This document shows, piece by piece, positions 3,316 to 55,653 of a stretch of 64,000 bases of DNA. A program made the translations under genes and the position numbers. The stretch is from Azolla caroliniana (lineage: Eukaryota; Plantae; Polypodiophyta): positions 16,802,001 through 16,866,000 of the forward strand of contig JBHGNT010000006.1 of assembly GCA_043228905.1 (NCBI GenBank), read 5' to 3'. Every line of letters begins with the position of its first letter. Positions within the stretch are counted from its first letter, which is position 1. The notes beneath the pieces are model-generated. The model worked only from the letters and a program-made list of their open reading frames with translations. It was not told where the DNA came from and searched no databases.

Positions 3316-3322
3316 TACTCCC

Positions 3323-4912: not shown

Positions 4913-4951
4913 AAGGTCAGCCCAACGGCCTTTACGACCAACAAGATCGGG

Positions 4952-9165: not shown

Positions 9166-9398
9166 AATCGTAGCATAGTAGGAGGTAGAAAGAAAGAGAA
9201 TAAAACGTAATACCAATTTGATTCGACCATAAAGAACGCATAATAGAAAAAGAGAAGAGATCAAAAAAGAAGAATACCGGGTTTAGAGTGTTGTTTTGAT
9301 CCTGAGAAGATCATGACGAGCCTTGTTAGATCCCCCTCGCTCACACGCAAAAAACATCAAAACAACAAAAAAATTGTTAGTAAAAGCTCTGATACCAC

Positions 9399-9834
9399 TG
9401 TTAAGAGTCTATTACTAATCAATAGACCAAATCAAGTAAAAAGGAAGAAAATAGATTGGATAGAAGAACCCGTTCCACCCGACCACCCCCGAGCTATGAT
9501 CTAGACATAGCCAACCTACCACCGACGTCCCATACCGCCGGATATTAGGATGACTAATACCTTGGAAGAGATAAACACGATCGTCGAGACGAAAGCCTAG
9601 CCCGCACCACCGGTGTCTACGACAGCAGCCTTCCGACGTGATGATCTCTATGAGGGTAGCTAAGCCTCATATTTATACCTTTTCCTAGGCCCCTTGAATA
9701 GATGTGCCTTTCTAAAAGGCTCTCTATTCATTGGTTGTCTAAATCATGATAGTGCATGCACATATCATTCATTCTATCCAATCATTAGTCCCCTTTTTAA
9801 TAATAGTGAACATACCCTTCACTAATGTAAATAT
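9399..9834 (-). repeat. G1 internal LTR copy lacking the first 38 bp of U3
   Basis: Near-identical to 2842-3277; has its own iMet PBS at 9386-9397. Confidence 0.93.
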
Positions 9835-10073
9835 CCAATGCACAAGAATAAAACGTAATACCAATTTGATTTGACCATAAAGAACACATAATAGAAAAAG
9901 AGAAGAGATCAAAAAAAGAAGAAGAAGAATACCGGGTTTAGAGTGTTGTTTTGATCCTGAGAAGAGCATGACGAGCCTTGTTAGATCCCCCTCGCTCACA
10001 CGCAAAATGTTGGGATTTTCGGTCCCTCCGGATGGGATGTCCGGAGATAAATGACGGCAAGCCTGGTTGCGGT

Positions 10074-10265
10074 TACGGAGCCGGATGACGAAGAGCCGAC
10101 TACGGAGCTGGATGATGAAGACCCCGGCTACGGAGCCGGATGACGAATAGAAGACCCCGGCTACGGAGCCGGATGACGAAGACCCGGCTACGGAGCCGGA
10201 TGATGAAGACCCCGGCTACGGAGCCGGATGACGAAGACCCCGGCTACGGAGCCGGATGATGAATG
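10074..10265 (+). repeat. 27-28 bp tandem repeat in the copia B 5' LTR U3 (7 copies; 8 copies in the 3' LTR at ~14901-15120)
   Basis: Unit TACGGAGCCGGATGA(C/T)GAAGACCCCGGC counted directly in both LTRs. Confidence 0.93.
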
Positions 10266-10775
10266 TACCCGGAGAGAGATCCGGATGCGGGGACATATTT
10301 GTGAATATGTTTGCCAAGGGCCCTTGAGGCTATATTTGTAAATAGCCCGAAAGTCATATGTGTATAAATATGACTTAGGGCAAACAGTTTAGTGACTGTT
10401 GCTCATTTTCTGTTTTCCACTTAGAGAGAGTGAAGAGAGCAGCCGAGAGAGAGAGAGAGAGAGAGAGAAAGACGAAGAGGTCGTTGCCTCTGTGTATTAC
10501 CGCCGCCTGTGGCGAAGACAGTGAGCTCAAGGTTGTTGCCTTGTGGCTTCACCATTGTACATCTCTGTTCATAGTGATAGTTGGAGTTTGAGGACTTCTG
10601 TGGTTTTTCCTATTTAGGGTTTTCCACGTAAAACATCCTGTGTATTTTTCTCTCTATTGTCTTCGTGCTTTTTTTTTTGTATTTCCCGTTTTTTCTGTGA
10701 ATCGATCCTACTACTTGGTGGCGGCCGAGCACTGTTGTTCAACAATCTGGTATCAGAGCACGGTTAACACAGAAA

Positions 10776-13700
10776 ATGGAAGGCGGCGGTAGTGGGCCTC
10801 CGGGCATGATGGTGTTGAACTCACCGAACTACGCCGACTGGAAGATAAAGATGGAAGACCTTCTCATCGTCCGAGACCTGTACGAACCGATCGACAATGC
10901 CGAGATACCCAAGGGGGTAATAGAGTCGGAGTGGAAGCTCCTGAACCGGAAAGCCATAGCGACGATCCGACAATATGTAGATGTAAGTGTTCTGCAACAT
11001 GTGGCGAACGACACCAACGCATATGAGATGTGGAAGAAGCTGTCGGGCCTCTACGAGAGGAAGAATGCGTTGAACCGGACTTCCCTGATGAGGAAGATAG
11101 TGAACCTCAAGTACCGGGATGGCGAGAATATGGTGGAACACGTGAGCACGTTCATGGGATTCGTGAACCAGCTTGCGGCGATCAAGTTCCCGTTGGAGGA
11201 TGCAATGCAAGCCATCATTCTGATGTGTACATTGCCGGAAAGCTGGGAGAACTTGGTGGTGACCCTCAGCACCTCCTGCACCGAAGATAACTTGTCTCTA
11301 CAAACGGTAAAGACAAGCATTTTGAACGAAGAAGCGCGCTAGAGAGATAAAGAACCGGTTTCCGATCCGAAGATGCTACTTACCGAATCGGATCGGGGAA
11401 GACAATGGAACCGGAGTCCGCAAAGACGGGAGAAGTCGGGGACCCGGTCGCAGTCAAGAGGAAGACCCACATGCTTCCACTGTGGGAAGCCGGGGCACTT
11501 CCGGAAGAATTGTCGGCATTACCGAAAGGACAACGGAGCCGACGACACTGATTCGAAGAAGTCACCGGAGAGAAACGGTGCATACCGGGGAGCCACGGAC
11601 CGGAGAGGTCCGGATCGGCGAGGGCAGGACCGGAAAGGAACGACGGCACTCGCGGCAAGTGAAGAAGAGATAATGCTCATTACCGAAGAGAGGGAGCTGA
11701 ACCTTGCCGGTGTAGAGATGACCTGGGTGGTCGATTCCGGAGCGTCGTTCCACCTGACCCCGGAGAAGAAATACTTCTCATCCTACACAGCCGGTGAGCA
11801 CGGCTGTGTCCGGATGGGAAATGAAGGCACATGTCGGATTGCCGGCATAGGAGACGTGTGGCTGATGACATTAACCGGATGCAAGATGCTGCTGAAGGAT
11901 GTACGACACGTTCCGGAGGTTCGATTGAACCTGATTTCGGCCGGGAGGCTAGACGATGAAGGCTACACGGGTAGCATCCGGAACGGTGTCATGAAGTTCA
12001 GCAAAGGAAGGTCAACACACTGTACCTGATGAATTCCCGGCTATGTCCGGAGGAGCTGAACGTGGCAACCGATACTGCCGGTGAGCTGTGGCACAAGAGA
12101 CTGTGTCACATGAGTGAGAAGGGGATGAAGAGGCTTGTAGAAGACAACCTTATTCCAGTGAAGCATGTGCACCTGGAGAAGTGCACCGATTGCCTGGCCG
12201 GTAAACAGAACCGAACCTCCTTCCACTCAAGGCCACCGATGAGACGTAGTGTACCATTGGAGTTGGTACACACTGATGTGTGTCAGGTAGAAACGAAGTC
12301 ACATGGCGGAGCCCAGTACTTCGTAACATTCATAGATGACCATAGCCGGAAGCTGTGGACGGCACCGTTGAAGACAAAGGACCAAGTATTGTCCGTCTTC
12401 AAAGAACTCCACGCGAGAGTGGAAAGGGAATCCGGCAAGGAGCTGAAAGCGATACGAGCGGATAACGGAGGGGAATACCGGGGGCAGTTCGAGGAGTATT
12501 GTCGCTCGAAGGGAATCCGGCTCGAGTTTACTGTGCCGAAGACGCCGGAACTGAACGGGCTGGCCGAGAGGATGAACCGGACCATAATGGAGAGGGTCCG
12601 GAGTATGCTGGCGCATGCGAAATTACCCAAGGGGTTTTGGGCTGAGGCAATGTCGACGGCGACATACGTGATAAACAGATCACCCTCAGTACCTTTGGAC
12701 GGAGACACGCCGCAGAGAGTGTGGACCGGTAGGGAAGTATCCTACCGGCATCTAAAGGTGTTCGGGTGTCTCGCATATGTGCATGTGGCAAAGGACCGGA
12801 GAGGAAAGCTAGACCCAAAGACCCGGCCATGCATATTCCTCGGTTACGGCGACGACGAGTTCGGCTACCGAGTATGGGACCCGGTCGACAAAAAGATATT
12901 CCGCAGTCGTGATATCATCTTCATGGAGGACAAGACACTCGCCGACTGGGAGTCGGAGAAGAAGATGAAGAGCTCCAAGTCGTCCGGTGAGGATCAACTC
13001 TACGAGGAGCAGTCCCGACCGGCAGGGGACCGGTTAGCACTCGAGGATCCGGCCGAAGACGGTGAAGAAACAGAACCGGCCGAGGAAGATGAAACTGATA
13101 CCGGAACTGGCCCCGATCCCGAAATGGATTCGGATGAAGAGGAAACGGAGGAGCCGGTTACCGAAGCTCCGGAACGGAGATATCCTCTAAGAGAGAGAAG
13201 GGCCCCCCGGAGATTTCCGGAACCAGAGCACGTGCTGCTAATCGACGAGGGGGAGCCGGAGAGTTTTGAAGAAGCAAAGCTTGACACCCATAGCCGCAGG
13301 TGGTTAAGTGCCATGCAGGAGGAGATGGATTCCCTGCATGAGAACCACACATATGAACTTGTGGAGTTGCCGAAAGGAAAGCGGGCACTTCGAAACAAGT
13401 GGGTGTTCAAGCTGAAACCGGGAGATGCCGGAAACCCCCCGAGATACAAAGCCAGGATCGTGGTGAAGGGGTTTCAGCAGAAGAAGGGCGTCGACTTCGA
13501 CGAGATATTTGCCCCGGTAGTGAAGATGACCTCCATCCGGACGGTGCTGAGCATAGCGGCAAGCATGGACCTCGAGGTAGAACAGATGGACGTGAAGACG
13601 GCATTCCTTCACGGTGACCTCGAAGAAGAGATCTACATGCAGCAACCGGAAGGATTCGAGAAGAAAGGGAAGGAGCACCTGGTATGCCGGTTGAAGAAGA

Positions 13701-14824
13701 GCCTTTACGGACTGAAGCAGGCTCCTCGGCAATGGTACCGGAAGTTCGACTCCTTCATGACCGACGAAGGGTACCACAAAACGCAGTCCGATCACTGCGT
13801 GTTTGTGAAGAAGTTCGAAGGAGGAGACTTTCTAATACTCCTCCTGTACGTGGACGACATGTTGATCGTCGGACGGGACCAGGTCAAGATACAGATGCTG
13901 AAGAAAGCGCTTCACCGAACCTTCTCAATGAAGGACCTGGGTCCGGCGAGGCAAATACTAGGGATGCACATCATCCGGGACCGGAAGAAGAAGCAGTTGT
14001 GGCTGTCACAGGAGAAGTACGTGACAAAGGTGCTTCACCGGTTCAACATGTCGGAAGCAAGACCGGTCGGGTCAACCCTCCCGGCAAACTGCAAGTTGTC
14101 CAGCAAGCAAAGCCCCAAGACAAAGGCTGAGAAGGAGGACATGATGAAAGTACCATATGCCTCTGCCGTCGGAAGCTTGATGTACGCAATGGTGTGTACA
14201 AGACCGGACATAGGATATGCAGTCGGAGTGGTGAGCCGGTATATGAGTAATCCCGTTAAGGAGCACTAGAACGCGGTCAAATGGATACTCCGATACTTAA
14301 AGGGCACTTCGAACATGTGCCTCCGATTCGGCTCCGGTAAACCCGAACTCGATGGATTTACCGATTCGGATATGTCGGCTGATGCGGATACCAGCCGGTC
14401 TACATCTGGGTATGTAATGACATATGCAGGGGGAGCCGTTTCGTGGCAGTCGAGGTTGCAGAAGACGGTTGCGTTGTCAACCACGGAGGCGGAGTACATG
14501 GCGGCTGTTGAAGCCGGCAAGGAAATAATATGGATGAAGGACTTCATTAAAGAGCTCGGTATCCGGCAGGAGGAGTACCGACTCTACTGCGACAATCAGA
14601 GTGCCATCCACCTTGCGAAGAATGCGGCCTATCACTCCCGGATGAAGCACATCCAGCGTAGATACCACTGGATCCGGGAAAGGATAGAAGACAAGGAGTT
14701 CGTGCTGACAAAGATCCACACGGACGAGAACAGGTCGGATATGCTGACCAAGGTACTTACACCCGACAAGCTGGAAGCATGCCGGAAGAGGATCGGATTG
14801 GAGAGACATCCCATGCCGAAGTGA
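10776..14824 (+). pseudogene. gag-pol: Copia B gag-pol with stops (11340, 14267) and a frameshift near 12010-12030
   Basis: CFHCGKPGHFRKNC knuckle, WVVDSGASFH protease, LWHKRLCH and HTDVC integrase, LYVDDML RT, FTDSD and CDNQSA RNase H across four ORFs. Confidence 0.95.
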
Positions 14825-15646
14825 AGGGGGAGTTTGTTGGGATTTTCGGTCCCTCCGGATGGGATGTCCGGAGATAAATGACGGCAAGCCTGGTTGCGGT
14901 TACGGAGCCGGATGACGAAGACCCGGCTACGGAGCCGGATGATGAAGACCCCGGCTACGGAGCCGGATGACGAAGAGAAGACCCCGGCTACGGAGCCGGA
15001 TGACGAAGACCCGGCTACGGAGCCGGATGATGAAGACCCCGGCTACGGAGCCGGATGACGAAGACCCCGGCTACGGAGCCGGATGACGAAGACCCCGGCT
15101 ACGGAGCCGGATGATGAATGTACCCGGAGAGAGATCCGGATGCGGGGACATATTTGTGAATATGTTTGCCAAGGGCCCTTGAGGCTATATTTGTAAATAG
15201 CCCGAAAGTCATATGTGTATAAATATGACTTAGGGCAAACAGTTTAGTGACTGTTGCTCATTTTCTGTTTTCCACTTAGAGAGAGTGAAGAGAGCAGCCG
15301 AGAGAGAGAGAGAGAGAGAAAGACGAAGAGGTCGTTGCCTCTGTGTATTACCGCCGCCTGTGGCGAAGACAGTGAGCTCAAGGTTGTTGCCTTGTGGCTT
15401 CACCATTGTACATCTCTGTTCATAGTGATAGTTGGAGTTTGAGGACTTCTGTGGTTTTTCCTATTTAGGGTTTTCCACGTAAAACATCCTGTGTATTTTT
15501 CTCTCTATTGTCTTCGTGCATTTTTTTTTGTATTTCCCGTTTTTTCTGTGAATCGATCCTACTACTTGGTGGCGGCCGAGCACTGTTGTTCAACACAAAA
15601 AACATCAAAACAACAAAAAAATTGTTAGTAAAAGCTCTGATACCAC

Positions 15647-16120
15647 TGTTAAGAGTCTATTACTAATCAATAGACCAAATCAAGTAAAAAGGAAGAAAAT
15701 AGATTGGATAGAAGAACCCGTTCCACCCGACCACGCCCGAGTTATGATCTAGACATAGCCAACCTACCACCGACGTCCCATACCGCCGGATATTAGGATG
15801 ACTAATACCTTGGAAGAGATAAACACGATCGTCGAGACGAAAGCCTAGCCCGCACCACCGGTGTCTACGACAGCAGCCTTCCGACGTGATGATCCCTATG
15901 AGGGTAGCTAAGCCTCATATTTATACCTTTTCCTAGGCCCCTTGAATAGATGTGCCTTTCTAAAAGGCTCTCTATTCATTGGTTGTCTAAATCATGATAG
16001 TGCATGCACATATCATTCATTCTATCCAATCATTAGTCCCCTTTTTAATAATAGTGAACATACCCTGCACTAATGTAAATATTAGTGACCTACCCTCACC
16101 AACGTTATGTGTACATAACA
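15647..16120 (-). repeat. G1 5' LTR (474 bp)
   Basis: Direct repeat of 2842-3315; PBS complement GCTCTGATACCA at 15634-15645; TSD follows. Confidence 0.95.
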
Positions 16121-22045: not shown

Positions 22046-22369
22046 GGCCTCCGTGGTTGATAGGGCCGTACACTCTTGAAGTTTCGAACTCCATGATATA
22101 GCACCACCACCATAGGTGAAGATATAGCCACATGGTGACTTTTGATTGTCCGTATTTCCAGCATAGTCGGAGTCAATGTAGCCTTCGACTTCGGCTGAGA
22201 TTGTCAAACCGAAAGTCAATCGTGTACCTTCGGTCCCTCTCAAGTACTTGAAGATGTGCTTGACGGTCTCCCAATGCTTCCATCCTGGGTTTGACATGTA
22301 CCGACACGGCATGTCATGATAACAGTCACATCATGCATCGAAAGGATCATGACACTCACATTATGACTC

Positions 22370-22430
22370 GAAAGGATTTGAACCCACGACCTTGTTGTAC
22401 ACATGTCAAATCGTTAACCATTGTATTAAT
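22370..22430 (-). ncRNA. tRNA-derived Pol III A/B-box module in the T1 LTR (antisense)
   Basis: Minus strand reads TAATACAATGGTTAA...AAGGTCGTGGGTTCAAATCC; A-like and B box starts are 44 nt apart. Confidence 0.6.
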
Positions 22431-22449
22431 ATTCTTATATGTATAGTCT

Positions 22450-22635
22450 CTAGAATATGAAATCTAATATCATAGGAATATTCTATATTACTCTACATTC
22501 TAGAATGACCTAGAATATTCTAGAGTGTTCTATACCACTAGAACCTTCTAGAATACTCTAGAGATCTTCTAGATTACTCTACATTCTCTAGGATAACCTA
22601 GAATATTCTAGAGAGTTCTCTATTACTTATAAATA
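22450..22635 (+). promoter_or_regulatory. Heat-shock element (nGAAn) array and TATA box in the T1 LTR
   Basis: aGAAccTTCtaGAAt (22540-22554), aGAAtaTTCtaGAgtgTTCt (22512-22531) and aGAAtaTTCtaGAgagTTCt (22600-22619), upstream of TATAAATA at 22628. Confidence 0.75.
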
Positions 22636-22872
22636 GGGATCTACCACCCATCCCAAACCTAAATTGGTTCAACGCCATTTTGTAGCCTACTCTTTGTAAT
22701 CCATTTTACGCTTCAATATAATAATTCTCTTTCAATTATCCCTCTATCTCTTTTTCTCTCTCTTTCTCTCTCTCAGTCTTGACAGTTTGAACCAATTTTT
22801 TTCCTTTCATCTCTTCGTCTTCCACAAACCCTAACAAGTTCTCTTCTTCCTTCTCCTCTCCCCTCATAAGCT

Positions 22873-23997
22873 ATGGAGTCCGTGAGCAAACAAGAATACA
22901 TGCGTGTTCTTTCTGAGCTCGACATGCTCACGAATAAATTTGTGGCATTAGAGCATGAGAATCAAAGGCTACTTGGAGATCTACAGCACGTGAGCGCCGA
23001 AAAAGCTCAACAATATGAAGAGTTATCACAGCGGGTTCATCAACTTGAGGCGACTATATTGTCATTACGAGAGCAAGCGTCGGGGGCTCAGAACTCCCCT
23101 AGAGAGCCAAAGATCAGCCTCCTTGCCAAGTTTGATGGTACGAGGTCTTTATTTCGAGGCTTTTTGAATCAAGTTCGTTTAGTTATTCAGCTACATCCCA
23201 ATCGGTATCCAACTGATGCTGCTCGTGTGGGATTAGTGGGAACTTTGCTATGCGGTACGGCGTTAGCATGGTTCGCACCACTTCTCGAGAAGAAATCACC
23301 ATTGCTGGAGGATTTCGAGGCCTTTGTTAAAGAGTTTCAAGCTAGTTTCGGAGACACCGACAGCACTAGGACAGCGATAAACAAGATTCGAAGGCTCCGA
23401 CAAGGAGATCGTCCCGCGTCGTCTTATGCAGCCGATTTCCGTCTCTTGGCATGCGATATCCCTTGGGATGAGGCAGCTTTAATGGATCAATTCCGTCAAG
23501 GTTTGAGAAATGATGTCAAAGATCTTCTTCTTACTTTCCCTGAAGATCCGAAGTCACTTACAGAAGCCATTAGTCGAGCTGTGCGATGTGATAATCGCCT
23601 ATTTGAGCGACGTTTTGAGCGCCAACAAATGTTACGCCGCCAACCTGAACAGACTTACGCTTCCGTAGTCGCAACGCCTCCACAAGTTTCTAGACCCATT
23701 ACAAGGGATGGCCCAACTCCGATGGAAATAGAGTCAACACAACGTTGTGGGCCGTTATCAGATGCTGAGAAGCAACGACGTCGAGCGCATCGCCTCTGCC
23801 TGTATTGTGGTGGTCCAGGACATATAGCTGTAAATTGTCCACATAAACCTAGGCGTCAAGTATACCAAGTAAGTGCCCATGAAAACCCTACATCGAGTTC
23901 TATTGTTACTTCTAATAACATAAATAAGCCTCATAGTCCATGTCATGAGAATAGATTCGATGTCTTGAGTCAATTAGAGGATGTGTTAAACGAGTAA
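22873..23997 (+). CDS. gag: T1 Gag (coiled coil, capsid, zinc knuckle)
   Basis: KFDGTRSLFRGFL, LRQG, PTPMEI and CLYCGGPGHIAVNC motifs; intact 374-aa ORF. Confidence 0.93.
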   Translation: MESVSKQEYMRVLSELDMLTNKFVALEHENQRLLGDLQHVSAEKAQQYEELSQRVHQLEATILSLREQASGAQNSPREPKISLLAKFDGTRSLFRGFLNQVRLVIQLHPNRYPTDAARVGLVGTLLCGTALAWFAPLLEKKSPLLEDFEAFVKEFQASFGDTDSTRTAINKIRRLRQGDRPASSYAADFRLLACDIPWDEAALMDQFRQGLRNDVKDLLLTFPEDPKSLTEAISRAVRCDNRLFERRFERQQMLRRQPEQTYASVVATPPQVSRPITRDGPTPMEIESTQRCGPLSDAEKQRRRAHRLCLYCGGPGHIAVNCPHKPRRQVYQVSAHENPTSSSIVTSNNINKPHSPCHENRFDVLSQLEDVLNE

Positions 23998-26900
23998 GTC
24001 CGGCCAAAATAGGAGCCATTTGGCTGGACCATCCTAGCTATGTAGAGTTAGTTCCTAGTCGTGGTTCCATTTCATCAAATCAAGTGAGTCGAGTTTTTTC
24101 AGCACAAGTCGAGCTTACCACATCTACATGTCATCGAGTCCTAGCCTCTGCCCTTCTAGATTCTGGAGCCAACTCTTGTTTCATGGATCGTGAATTTGCC
24201 TTGTCACAAAACATCCTCTTGAATAAGCTTCCCAACCCAGTAGCCGTAGGAGTCATCGATGGACGTCCCATAGCATCAGGAGATATTGTCGAGGAGTCCG
24301 AGCCAATTAGGATAGTTCTTGGCAATTTGGCAAGCCTAATCTCTTTCAATATTATTCGTAGTCCGGACCACCCAATAGTTCTAGGTCTCCCCTGGTTTGA
24401 ACTCCATAACCCGAAGATTGATTGGATGAAAAGAACAATTGAGGAGACTCGGGAAAAAAGCACAAATCCCGCATCCCTCTCTCCTACATGTGCTAATAGA
24501 TCCCCGGAGTTATCGCCCATCTCTTTACGACAGTTGCGGGAGGAATGGGGGAACGAGGCCATGTTCGTCTTCGCAATAGTAGCAACTCCATCATCCACTT
24601 CACGTGACGCGGATATTAAACTACCAGAGAAATACAAGGAGTTTTCAGATTTCTTTGATAAGGTGAAGGCCAATACATTACCGGAGCATCGGCCATACGA
24701 CTGCCCTATTGACTTACAACCAGGGAAAGAACCTCCATGGGGCCCAATTTATAATCTCTCCCCTGTAGAGCTAGAGACTTTGCGGGAATATATTGATGAG
24801 AATCTGGCAAACGGATTCATTCGGCATTCTAGATCCCCTGCTGGTGCACCCATCTTCTTCGTTAAGAAGAAGAATGGGACTCTTCGGTTGGTCGTGGATT
24901 ATCGAGGGCTAAACAAAGTGACTATCCGAAATAGATATGCTCTACCATTAATCCCGAATCTTTTGGAACGTCTCAGTGGTGCAAAATATTTCACGAAGTT
25001 GGACCTTCGCGGAGCATATAATCTAGTTCGGATTCGCCCGGGGGATGAATGGAAGACAGCTTTCCGCACTCGCTATGGACATTTTGAGTATACAGTGATG
25101 CCATTTGGTCTCACAAATGCACCTGCTGTTTTCCAACATATGGCGAACGATATTTTTCGAGATTTTCTTGATATCTTCACTATAGTTTACCTAGATGATA
25201 TTTTAATCTACTCAAAGACCCAAGAGGAGCATGATGCACATGTTCGTCAAGTACTGTGCCGACTCCGAGAATATGGTCTCTACGCAAAATTAGAAAAGTG
25301 TAGTTTCGGCCAGAATCAAGTGGAATTTTTGGGGTATGTTGTATCGTCAAATGGTATTGCTATGGACCCCATGAAGGTACAGACAATTTTAGAGTGGCAA
25401 ACGCCCCTTTCAGTGCGTGATGTGCAATGTTTTCTCGGGTTTGCAAATTTTTATCGAAAATTTATTAAAGATTATTCCAAGGTTGTGCTTCCGCTTACTC
25501 AGCTCACACATAAAGATCAACCATTTATATGGAGTTCAGATGCATCCGAGGCATTCGAAAGCTTAAAATGAGCATTTACAACGGCACCTATCTTAGCACA
25601 TGTCGACCCAACAAAACGCTTCATCCTCGAAGCCGATGCATCCGATTTTGCACTAGGGAGTGTCCTCTCGCAGACTGGAGATGATGGACAACTACACCCT
25701 GTCGCCTTTCATTCACGAAAGTTTGAAGCTGCAGAGATCAACTACGAGATCCATGACAAAGAGCTTCTTGCAATCGTGGATTCGTTTCAACAATGGCGAC
25801 ATTTCCTAGAAGGTTCTTTTCAACAGATCATTGTCTACAATGATCATAAGAACCTGACTTATTTCCAAAATGCTCGAGTCTTGAGTCGGCGACAAGCCCG
25901 GTGGGCGCAATTTTTGACTCACTTCGACTTTATCATCATATATCGCCCTGGGATGCAGCAAGGCAAAGCAGATGCTCTTTCTCGGCGCTCTTATATGGAA
26001 CTTCGTCCAGGGGAACCTGCTTTTGAGCATCAAAAACAAATCCTTTTGGGTCCTAATCGATTACGATTAATGGTAGTTAACACCATAACAGCTCTTGAAA
26101 ATTCCACTCTTCTTGATTCCATTCGAGATCATATGGCCACTGATGATTTCGTCAAGGATGTTTTGGATCATATCGTCCCGGATCGTGCTTCTTGCTCACA
26201 GTCGAAAAATCCTCGTAATGACTATTGTCAGTTCTATTGGCATGATGGTTTTCTATTTCGACAAAATTTATTGTATGTTCCTGATGGTCCCCCACGACTA
26301 CAAGTTTTGCAACATTGCCATGACTCACCAATGGCTGGTCATTTTGGAGTTCACAAGACTCTAGAATTAATTTCTCGACACTATTGGTGGCCTCGCCTTC
26401 GTCATTTTGTTGAGGAGTATGTTCGGAGTTGTGATATATGTTGTCGATCAAAGAATCCTCGTCACCGACCCTATGGCTTACTACAACCACTTCCCATTCC
26501 GGAAACACCTTGGAAGTCTATATCCTTGGACTTCATTACTGATCTCCCAGTTTCAAAAGGTTTTGATGCAATTATCACAGTGGTTGATCGATTTACCAAA
26601 ATGGCACATTTCTTGCCATGTACAAAGTCGATTACTAGTCAAGAGACGGCTGATCTCGTTATGCGGGAGGTATTTAAGCATCATGGTCTGCCAGATGATA
26701 TTATTAGTGATCGTGGTCCACAATTCATCTCAAAGTTTTGGAAGCACCTATTCAAACTTCTCCACATTTCAGTTAAGCTTTCTTCGGGCTATCATCCTGA
26801 AACAAATGGCCAAACAGAGTGTACCAACCAGACATTGGAACAATATCTTCGTTGTTTCATCAACTATCAACAAGATGATTGGGTTGCATTTTTGCACTTG

Positions 26901-27635
26901 GCGGAATTCGCTTACAACAACTCAGTCCATTCTTCTACAGGATATTCCCCATTTTTCGCAAATACGGGCTGTCATCCTCGATGGACGATGAATGCGCATC
27001 CAGAAGTTCCTACCAACCCTGCTGCCGAGGATCGTCTTAGTCGCCTCCAAGAAATTCAAGCTAACATTCTCCACAATTTGCACGATGCTCAATTTACACA
27101 CAAGAGGCTTGCCGATCGTCATCGTCTAGACTCCTCAAAAAAGTTCCGCATTGGGGATCATGTATGGCTTCTCCAACACAACATCAAGACCACTCGACCT
27201 TGCAGTAAATTGGATTACCAACGTTTTGGCCCTTACATGATCACTGGTAAGATAAGTGATGTTGCATTTCGTCTTGACCTCCCTCCGCACATGCATCTTC
27301 ATCCGGTGTTTCATGTATCCCTTTTGGAACCTTATACTACAAGTTCAATTCCGGGCCGTCTTACGACACCCCCACCACCTGTCGAGTTCTTGGACGGGCC
27401 TGAATTTGAAGTTGCTGCCGTTCTCGATTCTAAAATCGTGCGCAACAAGTTGTATTACTTGGTCGATTGGCTAGGCTATACCCCCAATGATCGAACTTGG
27501 GAACCTGCCACAAATCTTTCCAATGCTGCAGAACTCATCAATGCATTTCATCGCCAATATCCTTGTAAACCAGGTCCTAATACAAACCCTACGACCCGTG
27601 AGACGTGTCGTCGAAGAAGGGGGATAGTGTCATGA
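23991..27635 (+). pseudogene. pol: T1 Pol (PR-RT-RH-INT-chromodomain) in the -1 frame, one internal TGA at 25569
   Basis: LLDSGA, YLDD, EADASDFALG, HHCC/DDE and chromodomain EFEVAAVLDS..YLVDWLGY...TWEP. ORFs 24084-25571 and 25776-27635 share a frame. Confidence 0.93.
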
Positions 27636-30012
27636 TAACAGTCACATCATGCATCGAAAGGATCATGACACTCACATTATGACTCGAAAGGATTTGAACC
27701 CACGACCTTGTTGTACACATGTCAAATCGTTAACCATTGTATTAATATTCTTATATGTATAGTCTCTAGAATATGAAATCTAATATCATAGGAATATTCT
27801 ATATTACTCTACATTCTAGAATGACCTAGAATATTCTAGAGTGTTCTATACCACTAGAACCTTCTAGAATACTCTAGAGATCTTCTAGATTACTCTACAT
27901 TCTCTAGGATAACCTAGAATATTCTAGAGAGTTCTCTATTACTTATAAATAGGGATCTACCACCCATCCCAAACCTAAATTGGTTCAACGCCATTTTGTA
28001 GCCTACTCTTTGTAATCCATTTTACGCTTCAATATAATAATTCTCTTTCAATTATCCCTCTATCTCTTTTTCTCTCTCTTTCTCTCTCTCAGTCTTGACA
28101 CAGCATAGGCTAGGTCGGGCCGGGTCGCCGCCATTGCGTACATGATACGTCCTACGGCCGATGCGTAGGGCATGTTTCCATTAAGCTCTCTCTACTTGTC
28201 CGTTGAAGGAGAGTTTATGTCTGATAGTCGGATCGACATCGGAAGCGGTGTTGGTTTTGGCTTCGCATTTTCCATGTTGAAGTGCCTTAGCACCTTCTGG
28301 ATATAGTCGGACTGGGAGAGTCAGAGAGTCTTGGTTGTCTGATTTTGCTCGATCCTCATGCCCAGTATGTGATGGGCTTGTTCGAGTTCCTTCATCGCGA
28401 ACTTGTCGTGAAGGGTCCGCTTCAGCTTTCCAATCTCTACTTGATTTCTTCCTACAATTAGCATGTTGTCGACATATAGGATCAGGTAAATCCTAGACTC
28501 ATTGGCCAGTTGTCGAACATACATGCATGGGTCGAAGTCGGATCGACGGTATCCAAGCTTCTTGATGTAGGAGTCGAACTTCTGGTACCACATCCTCGGC
28601 GCGTGTTTCAAGCCATAGAGGCTTTTCTTTAGTCGACATACGAGGTGACTTTCCTCCCCTGTCATCGTGAACCCTGCCGATTGAGACATGTAAATGTCTT
28701 CTTCCAGATCTCCGTGTAGGAATGCCATCTTTACATCCAACTACACTAGCTCTAGGTCTTCTGTCGCCACAACTCTTAGTAGGAGTCTGAGGGTGGTCAT
28801 CTTGACAACTGGTGAGAATATCTCGTTGTAGTTGAACCCATGTTCTTGTTTGAACCCTTTCGCAACAAGCCGAGCTTTGTATTTGGGTTCTCTGAGTCGG
28901 ATACATATTTGTATCAGAAAACCCATTTGCAGGTTAGCGGCTTTCTTCCAGCTGGTAATTCAACCAACTCTCATGTCTGATTCTTGTGAATCGAGCCCAT
29001 TTTGGATCTCATGGCTTGAAGCCATATGTCGGTGTTCAGTGTGGCCATAGGTTCGTCATATGTGCCTAGTTCACCTGCATCAGTGTAGTTGACATAGTCG
29101 AGGCCCGATTGATAGAACATTGTCGGCCTTCGAGCTCGTCCAGATCTCTTGGGTGCCAAGATAAGTGGTTCCAATTCTTCGATCAGCTCTGTTGATTGAC
29201 CATTATTTGTTAAACCGTTTGTGCCATGAGTCTTGTTAGGTGACCTGCCCCCATGTTGGGATTTCAACGGTGTCATGGCGTTCTCCCCTATGGGCTTTGT
29301 CGACTCGGACTTGTTCCCAAATCGCATCTTGTTGACTTTTCTTTGTTCGACTCTTGTTGAATTGGCTCTATCTTTGATGGCTTTGTCTTCGAGTTCGACT
29401 ATTGGACTTGTTGCTGATTCGGAGTTGGCAGGTATATTATTCGCTTGTTCGAGTTCGACTGTTTATCGAGTCTCTAAGTCATCCTGGTGGGTCTGTCTTT
29501 CTACGACAACTCTATCATCTTCGAAGGATACCCTTTTACCAACTATTTTTTGTTGGTTCCGTTGAGAGAAGATAGAGTCTTTATTGAAGACTACATCACT
29601 GCTCCGGATCAGTTTCCGGTTCTCTAGATCCCATAGCCGGTAGCCGAAGTCCCCATCGGTTCCATAACCGAGAAATATGCATTTTGTTGCATGGGGTGCC
29701 AACTTGGTCCTTTTCTCCCTGGGGATGAACGCGTATGCTTCGCATCCCGATACACGGAGCCAATCGTAGGTCAGTTGTTTGCTTGACCATAGTGCATCTG
29801 GCACTTCGAGCCTGATTGCTTTCAACGGTGAAAGATTTGCGAGGTATATTGATGTCTACAATGCCTCGGCCCAAAACTCTAGATTCAGTCCGGCTTGTTG
29901 GAGGATTGCAGTCACCCTCTCCTGGATCGTTCAGTTGTTCCGTTCTGCCACTCCATTCTGCATGGGTGTGTAAGGAACGGTGTTGCGATATTCTGCAAGT
30001 ACGTGTAGGATC

Positions 30013-48578: not shown

Positions 48579-48909
48579 CAATCATGCCCGGCTTGGTCCT
48601 TGCCCACTCTGGTAACCTCGTCCGCTCCGGTAACTAACTCCTCGCCGCCACCCGCCGTCTCTCCAGTCTTACGTTGATCCACAACCGTCGAAGTCTCTAG
48701 AATAGGTGTGGAGGGTCCCGCCCGTTTCCGGTCTTTCATGGAACCGTAGTCGTAATGCCTGCTTGGCCTCCTTCTTCCACTCATTGGCTCCCACCATGTG
48801 TTGCAACTCTTCTTCCCCGATCTCCAATCATGTTGGCTTGGTCCTTGCCCAGTTCGGTCCCGACCGATCATGTTCGGGTTTGCTCGGCTTCCTTCCATAT
48901 GTCATGATA

Positions 48910-48972
48910 TGGCAAGACTCGAACCGATGACCTTAGGTTATACGGGTCGAGCTCTTGACCATTAGACCATCT
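48910..48972 (-). ncRNA. tRNA-derived Pol III A/B-box module in the T2 LTR (antisense)
   Basis: Minus strand reads TGGTCTAATGGTCAAGAG...AAGGTCATCGGTTCGAGTCT; A box start 48969, B box start 48925. Confidence 0.65.
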
Positions 48973-49044
48973 ATTGTAATACGTAGGATATTATTTTCAT
49001 TTATATTTTATTATAGGAAATTAGTGTATATTCCAGATTTCTCT

Positions 49045-49090
49045 GGAACATTCTAGAAGCTTCAGGATTACTCCTGAAAACACTATAAAA
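49045..49090 (+). promoter_or_regulatory. Perfect 4-unit heat-shock element and TATA box in the T2 LTR
   Basis: gGAAcaTTCtaGAAgcTTCa (49045-49064) and TATAAAA at 49084; repeated in the 3' LTR. Confidence 0.8.
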
Positions 49091-49410
49091 GAGGGCACTA
49101 GGAATTATGTTGAACCAAATTGGTTCAACGCCAGTCTTAAGCCTTTTAGCCACCATTGTATATTCTCTTCATATAATACATATCTTTCTTATCATCACTC
49201 TCTCTCTCTCTCTCGATCTCTCTCTTTCTCTCCGTCTCGCTCACTCCTTCCTTCTCTCGAAGAAGTTCTACACCTCTCATAGTACTAATCCTTCGTTTAG
49301 CACTAATTCCTTCTCTGTCTCAGTACTGTTCCTGACAGTTTGAACCAATTTGCCTACCTTCTATCTCTCTCATTTCCTACTAATCTCTTATTCCTCTTTT
49401 CTTTCATCCC

Positions 49411-52400
49411 ATGGCCACTGTTAGCGCTGAAGAATATTAATCTGTTTTCTCGAAATTTCAATGCTTGAAAGAGAATTTCCATGCTTTGGAACAAGAAAAC
49501 CAACGGTTGCTGGGGGATCTTCAGCAAATCTCCTTAGAAAAGCAGCAAACGCAACAACAGCATGGGGAACTTGCGTTACGCGTGCAACAACTCAAAGCAA
49601 CCATCGTAGCGATGCAACAACAAGGGCCCGGAACACAAGGGATTCATAAAGAACCCAAGATTGGCCTTCCCACGAAGTTCGATGGAACGCGATCGCAGTT
49701 TAGAGGGTTCCTTAACCAGGTACGATTAGTTATCCAAATGCATCCTTCCCGATATCCCACCGATGCATCACGAGTGGGTTTAGTAGGCACTTTGTTAAGT
49801 GGCTCAGCGTTGTCATGGTTCGCTCCACTATTAGAAAAGGAATCTCCGTTACTCAACAATTTTGAAGAGTTTCTAGGTGAGTTTAAAGCATGTTTCGGAG
49901 ATACTGACAGCATCAGGACCGCAATCAACAAAATTCGACGATTATTCCAAGGTGACTGTCCAGCCTCCGCATACGTTGCAGATTTTCGCCTTCTCGCCGC
50001 CGATATCCCTTGGGATGATCAAGCGTTGATGGAGCAATTCCGTTATGGTTTACGCAACGACGTCAAGGATTTACTCTTGACCTTCCCCGAAGAGCCAAAG
50101 TCCTTAACAGACGCAATCAGTCGCGCGATGAGATGTGACAACCGCCTCTTTGAGCGACGTTCGGAAAGACAGCTACAGATGCCGAGGCCAAGATCAGAGC
50201 CCACCTATGCCTCAGTGGTAGCAAGACCTTTTCCGAGGGAGTCATATAATGCGCCTCCAGCGAATACTCCGACTCCGATGGAGATTGACACTACACGTCG
50301 TCAAGGGCCATTATCCGAAGAAGAAAAGCAGCGACGCCGTACAAATCGACTATGTCTTTACTGCGGTGGACCAGGACATATCGCAATAAATTTCCCCCAT
50401 AGGCCAAGAAGACAGGTAAACCAAATAGTCGCTAGTTCTAATTGTACTAAACCCGAGCCTATTTCAGTAGGGATATCTGATAGTCCTAATAGTAAACAAA
50501 TTTGATGTCCTTAGTCAGTTAGAAGAAGAGTTAAACGACTAAGTCCAGCCAAAATAGGAGCCGTTTGGTTGGACAGCCCTAGATCTGTGTAGCCCATTAG
50601 TGGTTCCATTCCCTCTAAGCAAGTTAGTGATGTGTTCGTAGCCCAAGTAATAGTTAGTACTAAAAGTACCCCTCCAGTACATGTCCTAGCACTCCTAAAT
50701 TCCGGAGCTAACTCTTGCTTTATGGATAAGAAATTTGTTCAAGCTCATAAGATATACCTAAGAAAACTCCAGTGTCCAGCCTCTGTAGTAGTCATTGATG
50801 GACGTCCCATTGCTTCCGGAAATATCATAGAAGAGTCAAAGCCCATTAATATTGTCCTAGATAACTTAGCATGTGTAGCATCATTTAATATTATTAGTAT
50901 CCCAGAACATCCTATAGTTTTAGGATTACCGTGGTTCGAGTTACATAACCCAGACATAGATTGGAGAACAAGAGAAATCCGATGTCGACAAACCCAAGGG
51001 ACAACTCAGAAGATGGCAACCATTTCGCTACGTCAGTTGCGTAAAGAAGGGTGCGAGGAGGAAATGTTCCTCTTTGCAATATCAGTAAACCCCTCCAGCA
51101 CCACTAAAGAAGAATCCACCGTTCAACTTCCCGAGAAGTATTGTCATTACGCCGATGTGTTCGATAAAGTACAAGCCAACACACTTCCTCATCATCGACC
51201 GTACGATTGCCCCATCGATTTACAACCGGGAAAAGAGCCGCCATGAGGACCGATCTACAATTTGTCACCAACCGAGCTGGAAGTCCTTCGGGCCTATATC
51301 GAGGAGAATTTGGAAAATGGTTTCATTCGACATTGGAAATCTCCAGCCGGCACGCCCATTTTCTTCGTCAAGAAAAAAGATGGATCGCTTCGTCTCGTTG
51401 TAGATTACCGCGGCTTGAATAAGGTTACAATCAGGAATAGGTATGCTCTTCCCCTTATCTCAAGTCTTTTAGAACGGATCAATGGTGCCAAGTTCTTCAC
51501 GAAGATCGACTTACGGGGAGCATATAACCTCGTACGGATCCGACCAGGAGACGAATGGAAGACCGCGTTTCGCACCAGATATGGGCACTTCGAGTATACG
51601 GTCATGCCGTTCGGCCTCACTAATGCACCGGCAGTCTTCCAGCACATGGCTAATGATATATTCCGAGATCTATTGGATGATTGTTTGAACATCTATTAGT
51701 ACTAATACGACTATTCCGAGATCTATTCCGAGATCTATTCTCATGTACTATTAGTACTAATACGACTTCGAGAACATGGTCTGTATGCAAAGCTGGAAAA
51801 ATGTAGTTTCGGGTGCAACCAAGTGGAATTTCTCGGCTACATCATTTCATCAAAAGGCATCTCCATGGACCCAGCTAAGGTCAAAACGGTGGTAGAATGG
51901 CAAACTCCGCGTTCGGTGCGGGATGTGCAATGCTTCCTAGGCTTTGCCAATTTTTACTAGAAGTTCATACAAGATTACTCAAAGATCGTTCTACCTCTCA
52001 CACAACTTACCAGGAAGGGACAACCGTTCATCTGGTCTGAAGAAACGGACATGGCTTTCGAGAGTCTTAAAAAGTCATTTACATCGGCTCCAATTCTAGC
52101 TCATGTCGATCCGGAAAAAGCATTCATTATCGAAGCTGACGCATCGGATTTTGCATTGGGGAGCATTCTGTCACAACAGGGGAATGATGAGAAGCTACAT
52201 CCTGTGGCTTTTCACTCACGCAAGTTTGACACCGCCGAAATTAACTACGAAATTCATGATAAGGAGCTATTGGCAATAGTGGATTCTTTTATGCAATGGA
52301 GGCATTTTCTGGAGGGATCCTCTCATCCAGTCACCGTATTTAGTGATCACAAGAATCTTGCCTACTTTCAGGATGCTTGCGTGTTGAATCGACATCAAGC

Positions 52401-54120
52401 TCGATGGGCCCACTTCCTCACGCGTTTCGACTTCAAAATTACATATCGTCCAGGGAAGCACCAAGGGAAGGCAGATGCATTATCACGACGTTCGTATCTA
52501 GCACCCCGTCCTGGCGAGCCAGCTTTCGATAACCAAAAACAAGTCATCTTGGGACCGGCACAACTACAAGCAACACATATCTTTGACATGCCCATGGATT
52601 CCCGCGTTATCGATACCATACGTGAAGACTTGAAGACAGATGCGTTTGCCCAAGCTATACTAGCACAAATTGATCCCTCTCGAGCGTCGTCTTCACAGTC
52701 GCAACCACCAGGTACGGACTATCGGCAATTCAAATACCATGATGGATTACTCTTCTTTAAAGAACTTTTGTATGTTCCTAATGGTTCTTGCCGCCTTCGA
52801 GTTGTTCAAAACTGCCATGACACATATACAATTGGGCATTTTGGTAGTACTAAAACATTACATTTAGTACAACGATCATTCTGGTGGCCCTGTATGCGAC
52901 AATTTGTCGAGGATTTTGTTCGGACTTGTGATACATGTTGCAGAGCGAAAATGCCAAGGCATCATCCATATGGTTTATTAGAACCATTACCAATTCCAAG
53001 CAAGCCGTGGCATTCCATTGCTCTAGACTTCATCACAGATCTTCCAGTCTCTAAGGGGTTCAATGCAATTCTAACGGTGGTTGATCGATACACGAAGATG
53101 GCTTATTTCTTGCCATGTACTAAGGAGATCTCCAGTGAAGACACTGCCGAAATTGTCATGCGTGAAGTATGTCGACATCATGGACTTCCCGATAGTATCA
53201 TCAGCGACCGTGGACCCCAGTTCGTGTCAAAATTCTGGAAGCACCTTTTTAACATGCTCAAGGTCTCTTGTAACCTCTCCTCCGGCTACCACCCACAAAC
53301 CGACGGCCAAGCTGAACGAACAAATCAAACGCTGGAGCAGTGTCTGCGGTGCTTTCTCAGTTATCATCAGGACGACTGGGCAGATATTCTCCACTTCGCC
53401 GAATTTGCCTATAGCAACTCTATCCACGCATCCACTAAAGTTACGCCATTTTATGCTTATACGGGATGTCACCCTCGGTGGAGTGTACTTGAAACCCCAA
53501 AGGTGTCCACAAATCCGTGCGCGGAGGATCGTTTGGAGCGGTTATGCAAGATACAAGCGGATTTATCTACTCATCTCCAGCAAGCTCAACAAACACACAA
53601 GGTCTACGCGGATCGTCATCGACTTCCATCCAGTTTTAATATTGGAGATCGGGTGTGGCTGCTACGATGACACATCAAGACTACTCGCCCATGTGAGAAT
53701 TTGGATTATCGGCGATTAGGTCCTTTCCGTATTATTGGACAGATTAATTATGTCGCTTTTCGTCTCGATCTACCTCCTCAACTTCGGATACATCCAGTGT
53801 TTCATAGTTCTCTCCTTGAACCCTACCATGAGAGCACCATCCCAGGACGTCTTATCCAACCTCCACCCCCGATCAAGCTTGAAGATGGGCCGGAGTACGA
53901 GGTTGCCGCCATCCTTGATTCCAAGATTGTTCGCAACAAGCTCTACTATCTAGTCGATTGGCTAGGCTATAGTCCCAGCGAACGTACTTGGGAACCGATC
54001 GATAATGTGACCAATGCTCGTGCTCTTCTTGAAGACTTCCATCGTCAATATCCACACAAATCGGGTCCTCAATCCAAGACGACTCGTGACACTCGTCGTT
54101 TTAAAGGGGGGATAGTGTAA
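49411..54120 (+). pseudogene. gag-pol: T2 gag-pol with multiple stops, protease DSG>NSG and loss of RT YLDD
   Basis: ORFs 49465-50505, 50632-51246, 51262-51699, 52051-53670 and 53701-54120; chromodomain EYEVAAILDS..YLVDWLGY. Confidence 0.92.
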
Positions 54121-55653
54121 TGTTATGGCAAAACTCGAACCCATGACCTTAGGTTATATGGGTCAAGTTCTTGACCATTAGACCATCTATTGTAATACGT
54201 AGGATATTATTTTCATTTATATTTTATTAGAGGAAATTAGTGTATATTCCAGATTTCTCTGGAACATTCTAGAAGCTTCAGGATTACTCCTGAAAACACT
54301 ATAAAAGAGGGCACTAGGCATTATGTTAAACCAAATTGGTTCAACGCCAGTCTTAAGCCTTTTAGCCACCATTGTATATTCTCTTCATATAGTACATATC
54401 TTTCTTATCATCACTCTCTCTCTCTCTCTCTCTCCGTCTCGCTCACTCCTTCCTTCTCTCGAAGAAGTTCTACACCTCTCATAGTACTAATCCTTCGTTT
54501 AGTACTAATTCCTTCTCTGTCTCAGTACTGTTCCTGACACCATAATCGTAATAGCCGATAAGGGTTTGGCCGAACACTTCCGGTCTTACCAACTCTTCTT
54601 CGGTTCAGGCCTGGTGGACCGGCCCCCACTTCATTCTTTTCCCAGTTCGCCTTCCTATCGGGTCGATTCCTAACTCTCTCCTTGTTGCCGCTCTCGGCCT
54701 CCCCTTTAGTCCTTTTGTATATACCTGTTCCAGGCCTCGCATCCTCCTCTTCGTTTTGGTCACCCGCCCTGCCACTGCCATCGTTTGTCAGTCTAGGTCT
54801 CATGCCAGCTCTCGGGCCGGATGTCAGAGTCTCTAGAGCCAGTGCGGGTAAGATCTTGGCACCGCCGCTCGTTATGTCCGTACCCACCTCCATCCGGACG
54901 TCATTGTTCGTGGCTGTTGTACGTTGTCGGGATATTACGCAAGTGCGTGTGAAAATGAGGCGGGACCGCGGGGGTCTCGAACCAAAGAGCAAGCAAGGGA
55001 GGAGAAAGAGAGAGAACCGGCTACGCAGGACCGGGGATACGCAGGGACACGGCCCTTCAGCACGGAGAATGCGAACAGACACCGACACAGACAGATGCGA
55101 ATGACTAAATATGTGTATTAACAAAAATTGGCTAACACGACTACAACCCTCGATGGGGCACAGGTTGGTTACAACCGAACAGGCCGGCGAACAGATGCCG
55201 ATGCCTGTTCGCTTCGACGCACAAACGGGGTAGCAGGCCGGAGGTGCTGCCGGAAGCACTCGGCGTTCCTCGAAACAGCGCGAGCCTCCTCGGAACCCTG
55301 CACAGAAGCTATGGAGCTCGAGAAGGAAGGAAACACAGAGAGAGAGAGAGAGAAGCGTCCAGAAACAGTCCGGCAGCACTTCGTCCTCTCCGCGCGAGAT
55401 CCCTTCTCCTATTCTTCCTCTTCCTTTTATATCCCGTTAAGAGGCCGTTTGGCATTAACTGCATATCAACCGAATCTACCCACCTAGGATCCTCGTATGT
55501 ACTCTTGGCGCGCGTGTGTATAGAGCCGTTTCCCACGCCTTGTTCCTCCGATTCCTCTTGTGGGCGGTTTTCTTCACGACATCCGCCCCCACCTAACCGC
55601 GCATCCACCGGTATGCGCCAAATTAAGTTGGCACGGAGGAAACCGGCCCGCCT

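What the first reader, a model, noticed from the sequence alone, without database searches (positions are those of the whole stretch)
22450..22635. Heat-shock-element arrays in two chromovirus LTRs: candidate heat-activated gypsy family
Seen: the T1 U3 holds ~170 bp of alternating GAA/TTC units, including perfect aGAAccTTCtaGAAt, ending just before the TATA box. T2 has a perfect 4-unit gGAAcaTTCtaGAAgcTTCa 20 bp upstream of its TATA (49045-49064). Known: three or more inverted nGAAn units bind HSF trimers, and the copia ONSEN is heat-activated this way. Inference: a stress-inducible gypsy chromovirus lineage that converges on ONSEN and could spread heat responsiveness to neighbouring sequence.
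Basis: partly seen in the sequence, partly recalled or inferred. Interest (0 to 1): 0.72.

Follow-up and report, generated by a model that had tools for sequence, protein, structure and literature searches.

The report
Fern retrotransposons carrying heat-shock promoters
In what is likely a fern, most families of one group of jumping genes carry heat-shock-factor-type sequence motifs just before their promoters and one lineage supplies about two thirds of the genome's strongest such motifs, so heat likely switches these elements on, as is known for ONSEN in Arabidopsis.

Summary
T1's array (22450-22620) is three in-phase blocks with one perfect 3-unit HSE, not 170 bp in one register. T2 has a perfect 4-unit HSE inside an 11-unit in-phase run ending 5 bp before the TATA box. 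Both are self-priming, Tcn1-like (Tf1/Sushi) chromoviruses in a likely fern host. The trait is clade-wide: 57 of 70 sampled T2-lineage LTRs keep the 4-unit HSE, six of eight other family groups carry HSEs, and eight unrelated LTR types in the window have none. The genome holds 5,872 perfect 4-unit HSEs (reversed control 54); 3,807 are the T2-lineage 18-mer. Two sister families carry CATGCA arrays instead, so the U3 enhancer has switched type at least twice. Best reading: an HSF-driven, heat-inducible promoter (0.7), untested because no RNA run was available. Spread to genes looks limited: 65 of 77 flanks are repeats. The mechanism is known (ONSEN, flatworm Ty3, Cryptococcus TCN3); the host, the scale and the enhancer switching are what is new.

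The parts
22312..22784 (+). T1 5' LTR (473 bp, TG...CA), 100% identical to the 3' LTR
22476..22618 (+). T1 U3 HSE array: dyad at 22476 and three in-phase blocks (22498-22530, 22541-22563, 22596-22618); perfect 3-unit HSE at 22541-22553; internal duplication of about 57 bp; no CG or CHG site in 22450-22620
22628..22635 (+). T1 TATA box (TATAAATA)
22661..22672 (+). T1 predicted self-primer at the R 5' end, complementary to the PBS
22787..22798 (+). T1 primer-binding site that matches the element's own R region (self-priming type)
22870..23997 (+). T1 gag (Retrotrans_gag, Ty3_capsid, weak zinc knuckle)
23955..27635 (+). T1 pol: PR-RT-RNaseH-INT-SH3-chromodomain, in a separate frame from gag, interrupted by one in-frame stop at 25569-25571
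27628..28100 (+). T1 3' LTR with a second copy of the array, preceded by a polypurine tract; target-site duplication CGGCA/CAGCA (one mismatch)
48900..49337 (+). T2 5' LTR (94% identical to the 3' LTR); target-site duplication CCATA/CCATA
49026..49078 (+). T2 in-phase run of 11 nGAAn/nTTCn units, containing the perfect 4-unit HSE at 49046-49063
49084..49091 (+). T2 TATA box (TATAAAAG)
49116..49128 (+). T2 predicted self-primer, complementary to the PBS at 49340-49352
49441..54115 (+). T2 internal region: gag, and pol in several broken pieces; 67% DNA identity to T1
54116..54539 (+). T2 3' LTR with the same 11-unit run (54242 onward)

Best explanation
T1 and T2 are LTR retrotransposons of a predicted self-priming, Tcn1-like chromovirus clade in a likely fern genome, and the inverted nGAAn arrays next to their TATA boxes likely bind host heat-shock-factor trimers, which would make transcription of unsilenced copies rise under heat. 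Shown: the arrays, their position, their retention across copies and families, HSF genes in the host, and the same HSE core in host sHSP promoters. Inferred: HSF binding (two trimers on the T2 4-unit core, one on the T1 3-unit core plus weaker gap sites); heat-induced transcription from about 33 bp below the TATA box; pairing of the transcript's first 12-13 nt with the PBS to prime reverse transcription; and chromodomain-guided insertion into repeat-rich chromatin. The array is likely ancestral in the T1/D/I/T2/H/E/F group and has been rebuilt by local duplication in each family, while some lineages replaced it with a CATGCA-rich array.
For: Above chance. Specific: 0 HSE dyads in the 8 other LTR types examined in the window, including the tRNA-Met-primed chromovirus T3. 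Retained: 65 of 70 T2-lineage LTRs have a 3-unit and 57 of 70 a 4-unit HSE; 11 of 14 T1-lineage LTRs have a 3-unit HSE; copies were chosen by their PBS, not their HSE. On a 66-copy tree, key and middle HSE positions changed on internal branches at 2 of 22 sites, against 83 of 176 in R/U5 (p=5e-4); terminal:internal changes were 25:4 against 161:90 in upstream U3 (p=0.02). Families with different array layouts keep the register: E 8 of 8 with a 3-unit HSE, F 2 of 2, D/I 4 of 5, A 11 of 14, C 3 of 7; metagenome relatives L153/L154 and L204 (53% pol identity) also carry arrays before the TATA box. Host: 10 HSF DNA-binding-domain matches; 9 of 27 orientable sHSP loci have a perfect 3-unit HSE upstream, several with the same TTCTAGAA core. 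Recent activity: identical LTR pairs in T1 and five T2-lineage copies. In Brassicaceae COPIAs, 4-unit HSEs went with up to 1000-fold and 3-unit with up to 100-fold heat induction (PMC5059998, passages). HSE mutation abolished heat response of a Ty3 LTR in Macrostomum (PMC12801592).
Against: No expression or binding evidence of any kind. The conservation test is modest against the fairest control: 2 of 22 against 35 of 116 upstream-U3 sites, p=0.06; the whole array 9 of 53 against 35 of 116, p=0.09; spacer positions are also conserved, so the signal is not cleanly HSE-shaped. In Physcomitrium the main gypsy family RLG1, which may be of fungal origin, is repressed by heat shock, while RLG2 is induced (PMC7466625, passages); I could not see their LTRs. 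T2 LTRs keep CG and CHG sites (11 and 11; four CHG inside the array), unlike ONSEN, and most copies lie among repeats, so methylation may block HSF. Both window copies have broken pol genes. T1 has only the moderate 3-unit class plus gap types, which were mostly insufficient in Brassicaceae.
Confidence: 0.7

Rival explanations
1. The arrays bind HSFs, but the selected output is not heat activation: they drive expression in another HSF-controlled state (oxidative or drying stress, a developmental stage), or bind repressive class B HSFs that damp transcription, or are now mostly silenced.
For: RLG1 of Physcomitrium is repressed by heat. The host has 10 HSF matches whose classes I did not determine. 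Sister families use CATGCA arrays, which points to developmental control as an alternative strategy in this clade. That plant HSFs act in many stresses and that class B HSFs repress is recalled, from no call.
Against: The layout (3-4 perfect units within 20-75 bp of a TATA box) matches the host's own sHSP promoters and both validated cases, which are heat-activated.
Confidence: 0.2
2. The arrays are a palindromic 10-bp repeat (TTCTAGAA) that arose by slippage and hitch-hiked with successful elements, or a site for a non-HSF factor; the HSE match is incidental.
For: T1's array is a degenerate 10-bp tandem repeat with phase breaks and an internal duplication. Spacer bases in T2 are conserved nearly as well as core bases. 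High copy counts come from amplification and are not independent events.
Against: The period is exactly that of the HSE; arrays always sit just before the TATA box; they recur with different layouts in at least seven family groups and in a distant relative; non-palindromic spacers (CC, TC, GC) occur while GAA/TTC are kept.
Confidence: 0.1

Closest known systems
ONSEN/COPIA78 of Brassicaceae (PMC3907296, passages; PMC5059998, passages)
   Same: A cluster of nGAAn units in the LTR; the T2 core is the strong 4P class; growth of the array by local duplication (T1); T1's array has no CG or CHG site.
   Different: ONSEN is Ty1/copia with 8 copies in Col-0 and shown HSFA2 binding. These are Ty3/gypsy chromoviruses with thousands of LTRs, self-priming, T2 not free of CG/CHG, mostly among repeats, and untested.
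HSE-bearing Ty3 families of Macrostomum lignano (Mag, CsRN1, Gmr1/Osvaldo; PMC12801592, abstract and section 10)
   Same: Canonical HSEs in Ty3/gypsy LTR promoters, in several families of one genome.
   Different: Animal host, clades named as Mag, CsRN1 and Gmr1/Osvaldo, heat induction and HSE need shown by experiment.
Cryptococcus TCN3 and TCN12 (PMC12810828, PMC9942834, passages)
   Same: Fungal LTR elements that move at 37 C and have putative LTR HSEs; TCN3 is Ty3/gypsy and centromere-bound; the RT tree here places T1/T2 among fungal and vertebrate elements.
   Different: The TCN12 HSE is an imperfect step type; the arrays here are far stronger; I did not compare sequences with TCN3 or TCN12.
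Plant Tcn1 clade (PpatensLTR, SM-Tcn1; PMC6317226, PMC2864245, PMC3350952, passages)
   Same: Group I chromodomain with aromatic cage, self-priming PBS, RT close to Tf1/Sushi, LTRs of about 440-470 bp.
   Different: Reported from mosses and Selaginella, and not recovered by PCR from 26 ferns and horsetails; here the host is likely a fern. No HSE was mentioned in the passages I saw.
PHRE1/PHRE2 of moso bamboo (PMC8656106, abstract and passages)
   Same: Plant Ty3/gypsy elements reported as heat-activated through the 5' LTR.
   Different: The terms 'heat shock element' and 'HSE' do not occur in its main text; seed-plant host.

Membership tests
Tcn1 clade (Tf1/Sushi-related plant chromoviruses) | Ty3/gypsy domain order PR-RT-RH-INT with a C-terminal chromodomain | tested here: met
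   for T1; T2 chromodomain inferred from DNA alignment only.
Tcn1 clade (Tf1/Sushi-related plant chromoviruses) | Group I chromodomain with three aromatic cage residues | tested here: met
   By inspection of T1: F in EFEV, W and Y in VDWLGY, against the Y24/W45/Y48 scheme in PMC3350952. No fold was run.
Tcn1 clade (Tf1/Sushi-related plant chromoviruses) | PBS complementary to the element's own R 5' end (self-priming) | tested here: met
   12 and 13 nt of perfect complement; folds with z -3.3 and -3.4; the shuffle z is helped by my choice of ends. Prediction only.
Tcn1 clade (Tf1/Sushi-related plant chromoviruses) | RT groups with named Tcn1 elements inside Tf1/Sushi | tested here: inconclusive
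   The clade has 100% support, is sister to an Ustilago element (84) and lies among fungal and vertebrate sequences, apart from seed-plant elements and T3; deeper nodes are weak (39-49) and no named Tcn1 sequence was available.
Tcn1 clade (Tf1/Sushi-related plant chromoviruses) | Reported host range in plants: mosses and Selaginella (a distribution, not a diagnostic trait) | tested here: not met
   Best named hits of two host genes are ferns (Adiantum, Ceratopteris).
HSE-driven LTR retrotransposons (ONSEN type) | 3P or 4P HSE in the LTR upstream of the promoter | tested here: met
HSE-driven LTR retrotransposons (ONSEN type) | HSF binds the LTR element | not testable with these tools
   HSF genes present; binding needs EMSA or DAP-seq.
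HSE-driven LTR retrotransposons (ONSEN type) | Heat-induced, HSE-dependent transcription and extrachromosomal DNA | not testable with these tools
   No RNA holder listed.
ONSEN/COPIA78 itself | Ty1/copia superfamily | tested here: not met
   Ty3/gypsy domains.
ONSEN/COPIA78 itself | [quoted passage not shown] | tested here: not met
   T1 LTR 6 CG and 2 CHG (depleted: 11.8 and 10.5 expected; none in the array); T2 LTR 11 and 11.

The most novel reading that the evidence does not exclude
A fungal-type chromovirus radiation in a fern divides the host's regulatory programmes among its families by swapping one U3 enhancer cassette (HSE arrays in most, CATGCA arrays in others), and its thousands of strong HSEs, parked in heterochromatin, outnumber the host's own so heavily that they act as a genome-wide sink for heat-shock factor and shape the plant's heat response.
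Probability: 0.15. Interest if true: 0.72.

Novelty: new variant of a known kind. Interest (0 to 1): 0.45.

Why it matters
One paper (PMC12801592) counts only two validated cases of LTR elements using canonical HSEs. This would add a plant Ty3/gypsy chromovirus case, in a plant group where this clade was reported as probably absent. The scale is unusual: thousands of 4-unit HSEs, against 8 ONSEN copies in Col-0. Sister families with and without HSEs in one genome give a built-in control, so one heat RNA-seq experiment can test whether the U3 array sets each family's trigger, and whether transposon-borne HSEs compete with genes for HSF.

Tried and rejected
Expression: no RNA holder listed; four runs laid were all contigs and cannot show level or start; neither counts for or against. 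One search failed on a script error. One search assigned HSE position classes one base off and was replaced (its tree, per-base table and length counts stand). One search did not exclude the same place held under two ids and gave 81 of 93; replaced. My first guess of a moss host was dropped. 'T1 and T2 gained HSEs independently' was considered and not favoured: the RT tree alone allows it (T1 sister to HSE-less L152), but gag groups T1 with D and I, integrase groups T1 with D, and T1's LTR resembles D/I, not L151/L152. No T1/T2 LTR was found within about 1.5 kb of 30 sHSP and 10 HSF matches. RLG1/RLG2 LTR sequences were not in the one supplement I read (figure legends only; three tables not opened). 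Earlier findings: nothing near or by words; the eight genome-wide notes shown concern a different element type. No structure or complex job was run: none bears on a DNA motif.

Full report
Setting. The window is G000:C6:16802001-16866000 in a 523 Mb assembly and is a nest of LTR retrotransposons. The best named relatives of two host genes are ferns: a plastid-type sHSP matches Adiantum (62%) and Ceratopteris (58%) ahead of Physcomitrium (48%), and an HSF exon matches Adiantum and Ceratopteris (57%) ahead of an angiosperm (43%). The host is therefore likely a fern.

The elements. T1 spans 22312-28100 with two identical 473-bp LTRs; T2 spans 48900-54539 with LTRs 94% alike. Pfam gives gag, PR, RT, RNase H, integrase, SH3 and chromodomain for T1, and gag to integrase for T2. 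T1's pol has one in-frame stop and T2's is in pieces. In both, the 12-13 nt after the 5' LTR are complementary to a stretch 32-33 bp below the start of the TATA box, the self-priming layout that Neumann et al. give for Tcn1 and Tf1/Sushi (PMC6317226, passages). An RT tree puts T1, T2 and their relatives in one clade (100), sister to an Ustilago element (84), among fungal and vertebrate sequences; the window's third chromovirus, T3, has a tRNA-Met-type PBS (label recalled) and falls with seed-plant elements. No named Tcn1 sequence was in the tree, so I call them Tcn1-like. Novikova et al. found no Tcn1-like clones in 26 ferns and horsetails (PMC2864245, section 7).

The observation. T1 has one perfect 3-unit HSE and four gap-type matches, all above chance, but in three blocks separated by phase breaks, with a duplication of about 57 bp. 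The eight other LTR types examined in the window have no HSE dyad at all.

Retention across copies. The LTR-end-plus-PBS 16-mer occurs 1,174 times. I used 90 of the 100 places listed; 6 had no TATA anchor and were dropped. Of the remaining 84, 65 of 70 T2-lineage LTRs have a 3-unit and 57 of 70 a 4-unit HSE; 11 of 14 T1-lineage LTRs have a 3-unit and 2 of 14 a 4-unit HSE. On a tree of 66 of 71 T2-lineage copies (5 lacked gag), 62 keep the array's length. Key and middle HSE positions changed on internal branches at 2 of 22 sites, against 35 of 116 in upstream U3 (p=0.06) and 83 of 176 in R/U5 (p=5e-4); terminal:internal counts were 25:4 against 161:90 (p=0.02); the whole array against upstream U3 was not significant (p=0.09). 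This is modest support for selection.

Scale. The genome has 5,872 perfect 4-unit matches against 54 for the reversed pattern (overlapping matches in long arrays may each count). The T2-lineage 18-mer in two variants accounts for 3,807, or 65%, and 14 of 15 sampled 4-unit sites are T2-lineage LTRs. The T1 core 21-mer occurs 398 times. These counts reflect amplification, not independent origins.

Clade-wide pattern. A TATA-to-primer pattern shared by the relatives matches 7,046 times (control 6). I fetched the non-T2 places among the first 100 listed and scored 50 LTRs in 39 loci. With a 3-unit HSE: A 11 of 14, C 3 of 7, D/I 4 of 5, E 8 of 8, F 2 of 2, T2/H 5 of 6; B 0 of 7 and G 0 of 1, which carry CATGCA repeats (the RY label is recalled). 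Family letters are mine. Among 79 metagenome loci, I inspected the 12 with the closest or best-placed LTR regions: L153, L154 and L204 have HSE arrays before the TATA box; L151, L152 and L200 have CATGCA-rich U3s; L182 and L186 have GCCACGT repeats (ABRE-like, label recalled); L155 and L156 have other repeats; L213 and L229 showed no LTR. In RT, gag and integrase trees the HSE-less L151/L152 lie among HSE families, and HSE-bearing L204 is sister to HSE-less B in integrase (99). The U3 type has thus changed at least twice. T1's LTR resembles D and I more than L151/L152, so an ancestral HSE with later replacement, or LTR exchange by recombination, fits better than separate gains in T1 and T2; the trees do not settle this.

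Host machinery. There are 10 HSF DNA-binding-domain matches and 33 sHSP matches. Of 30 sHSP loci, 27 could be oriented and 9 have a perfect 3-unit HSE within 800 bp upstream of the domain match, several with the same TTCTAGAA core. T1's array has no CG or CHG site (3.9 and 3.4 expected), as in ONSEN (PMC3907296, passages); T2's LTR is not depleted.

Spread to neighbours. Of 87 loci examined, 77 gave a clear outer flank; 65 of 77 are repeat-like and 42 hit retrotransposon proteins, against 4 of 80 and 0 for flanks of sHSP and HSF loci. On C1, 43 of 63 PBS hits lie between 10 and 25 Mb of 37 Mb. This fits heterochromatin targeting by a group I chromodomain, shown for MAGGY (PMC3350952, passages). 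One T1-type solo LTR lies about 2.7 kb upstream of an HSF gene, facing away and inside an older element; roughly 0.4 such cases are expected by chance for 10 loci (my estimate from LTR density). Donation of heat response to genes is possible for a minority of copies and is not shown.

Comparison with what is known. HSE-driven LTR elements are established: ONSEN; Macrostomum Ty3 families (PMC12801592, abstract and section 10); putative HSEs in Cryptococcus TCN3 and TCN12 (PMC12810828, PMC9942834, passages); heat-activated gypsy PHRE1/2 in bamboo (PMC8656106, abstract and passages). By the classes in PMC5059998 (passages), T2 is 4P (strong) and T1 is 3P plus gap (moderate). Against the reading, RLG1 of Physcomitrium is heat-repressed while RLG2 is heat- and ABA-induced (PMC7466625, passages). 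Nine searches listed no paper on HSEs in Tcn1-like LTRs or on Tcn1 in a fern. The library lacks most subscription journals, and the data files of PMC8282616, which covers four pteridophyte genomes, were not seen (passages only; PMC13469084 passages), so Tcn1 in ferns may already be on record.

Verdict. It most likely works as ONSEN's does (0.7), with no expression data yet. The mechanism is known; the host, the lineage, the scale and the switching between HSE and CATGCA cassettes are the new parts. Interest 0.45.

Noticed in passing
G000:C3:184636-184995 (L355): A T1-type solo LTR with a perfect 3-unit HSE and a 5-bp target-site duplication lies about 2.7 kb upstream of an HSF gene, facing away, inside an older gypsy remnant; compatible with chance.
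   Followed up: partly
window 49109-49129; also families B, C, G and L151, L152, L200, L204: An inverted repeat spans the predicted transcription start and self-primer in many families (each with its own sequence) but is absent or partial in T1 and D; it may form a DNA or RNA hairpin tied to self-priming.
   Followed up: no
L326 (G000:C1:12594732): Family I joins a gag 91% identical to T1 with a D-like LTR, which suggests recombination between families.
   Followed up: partly
L328, L332: Family A LTR pairs lie only 1.7-2.5 kb apart with no gag or RT hit; possibly short non-autonomous derivatives that keep HSE arrays.
   Followed up: no
G000:C3:23489006-23495002: A tandem run of more than a dozen T1 LTR fragments, most covering LTR positions 1-223 at 377-bp spacing.
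   Followed up: no
G000:C9:17.89-18.26 Mb: A cluster of 16 sHSP matches, many with HSEs 550-730 bp upstream of the domain match.
   Followed up: partly
L182, L186 (metagenome contigs): Related self-priming-type LTRs carry tandem GCCACGT-containing repeats before the TATA box, resembling ABA-response elements (label recalled).
   Followed up: no
window 2842-16120: T3, a chromovirus with a tRNA-Met-type PBS and three LTR copies 99% alike (2842-3315, 9399-9834, 15647-16120), with a copia element (10008-15595) between the last two; no HSE.
   Followed up: partly
window 40644-40663: A perfect 3-unit HSE inside a two-copy 10-bp repeat outside the LTRs that I mapped.
   Followed up: no
window 22307-22311 and 28101-28105: T1's target-site duplication has one mismatch although its LTRs are identical.
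   Followed up: no
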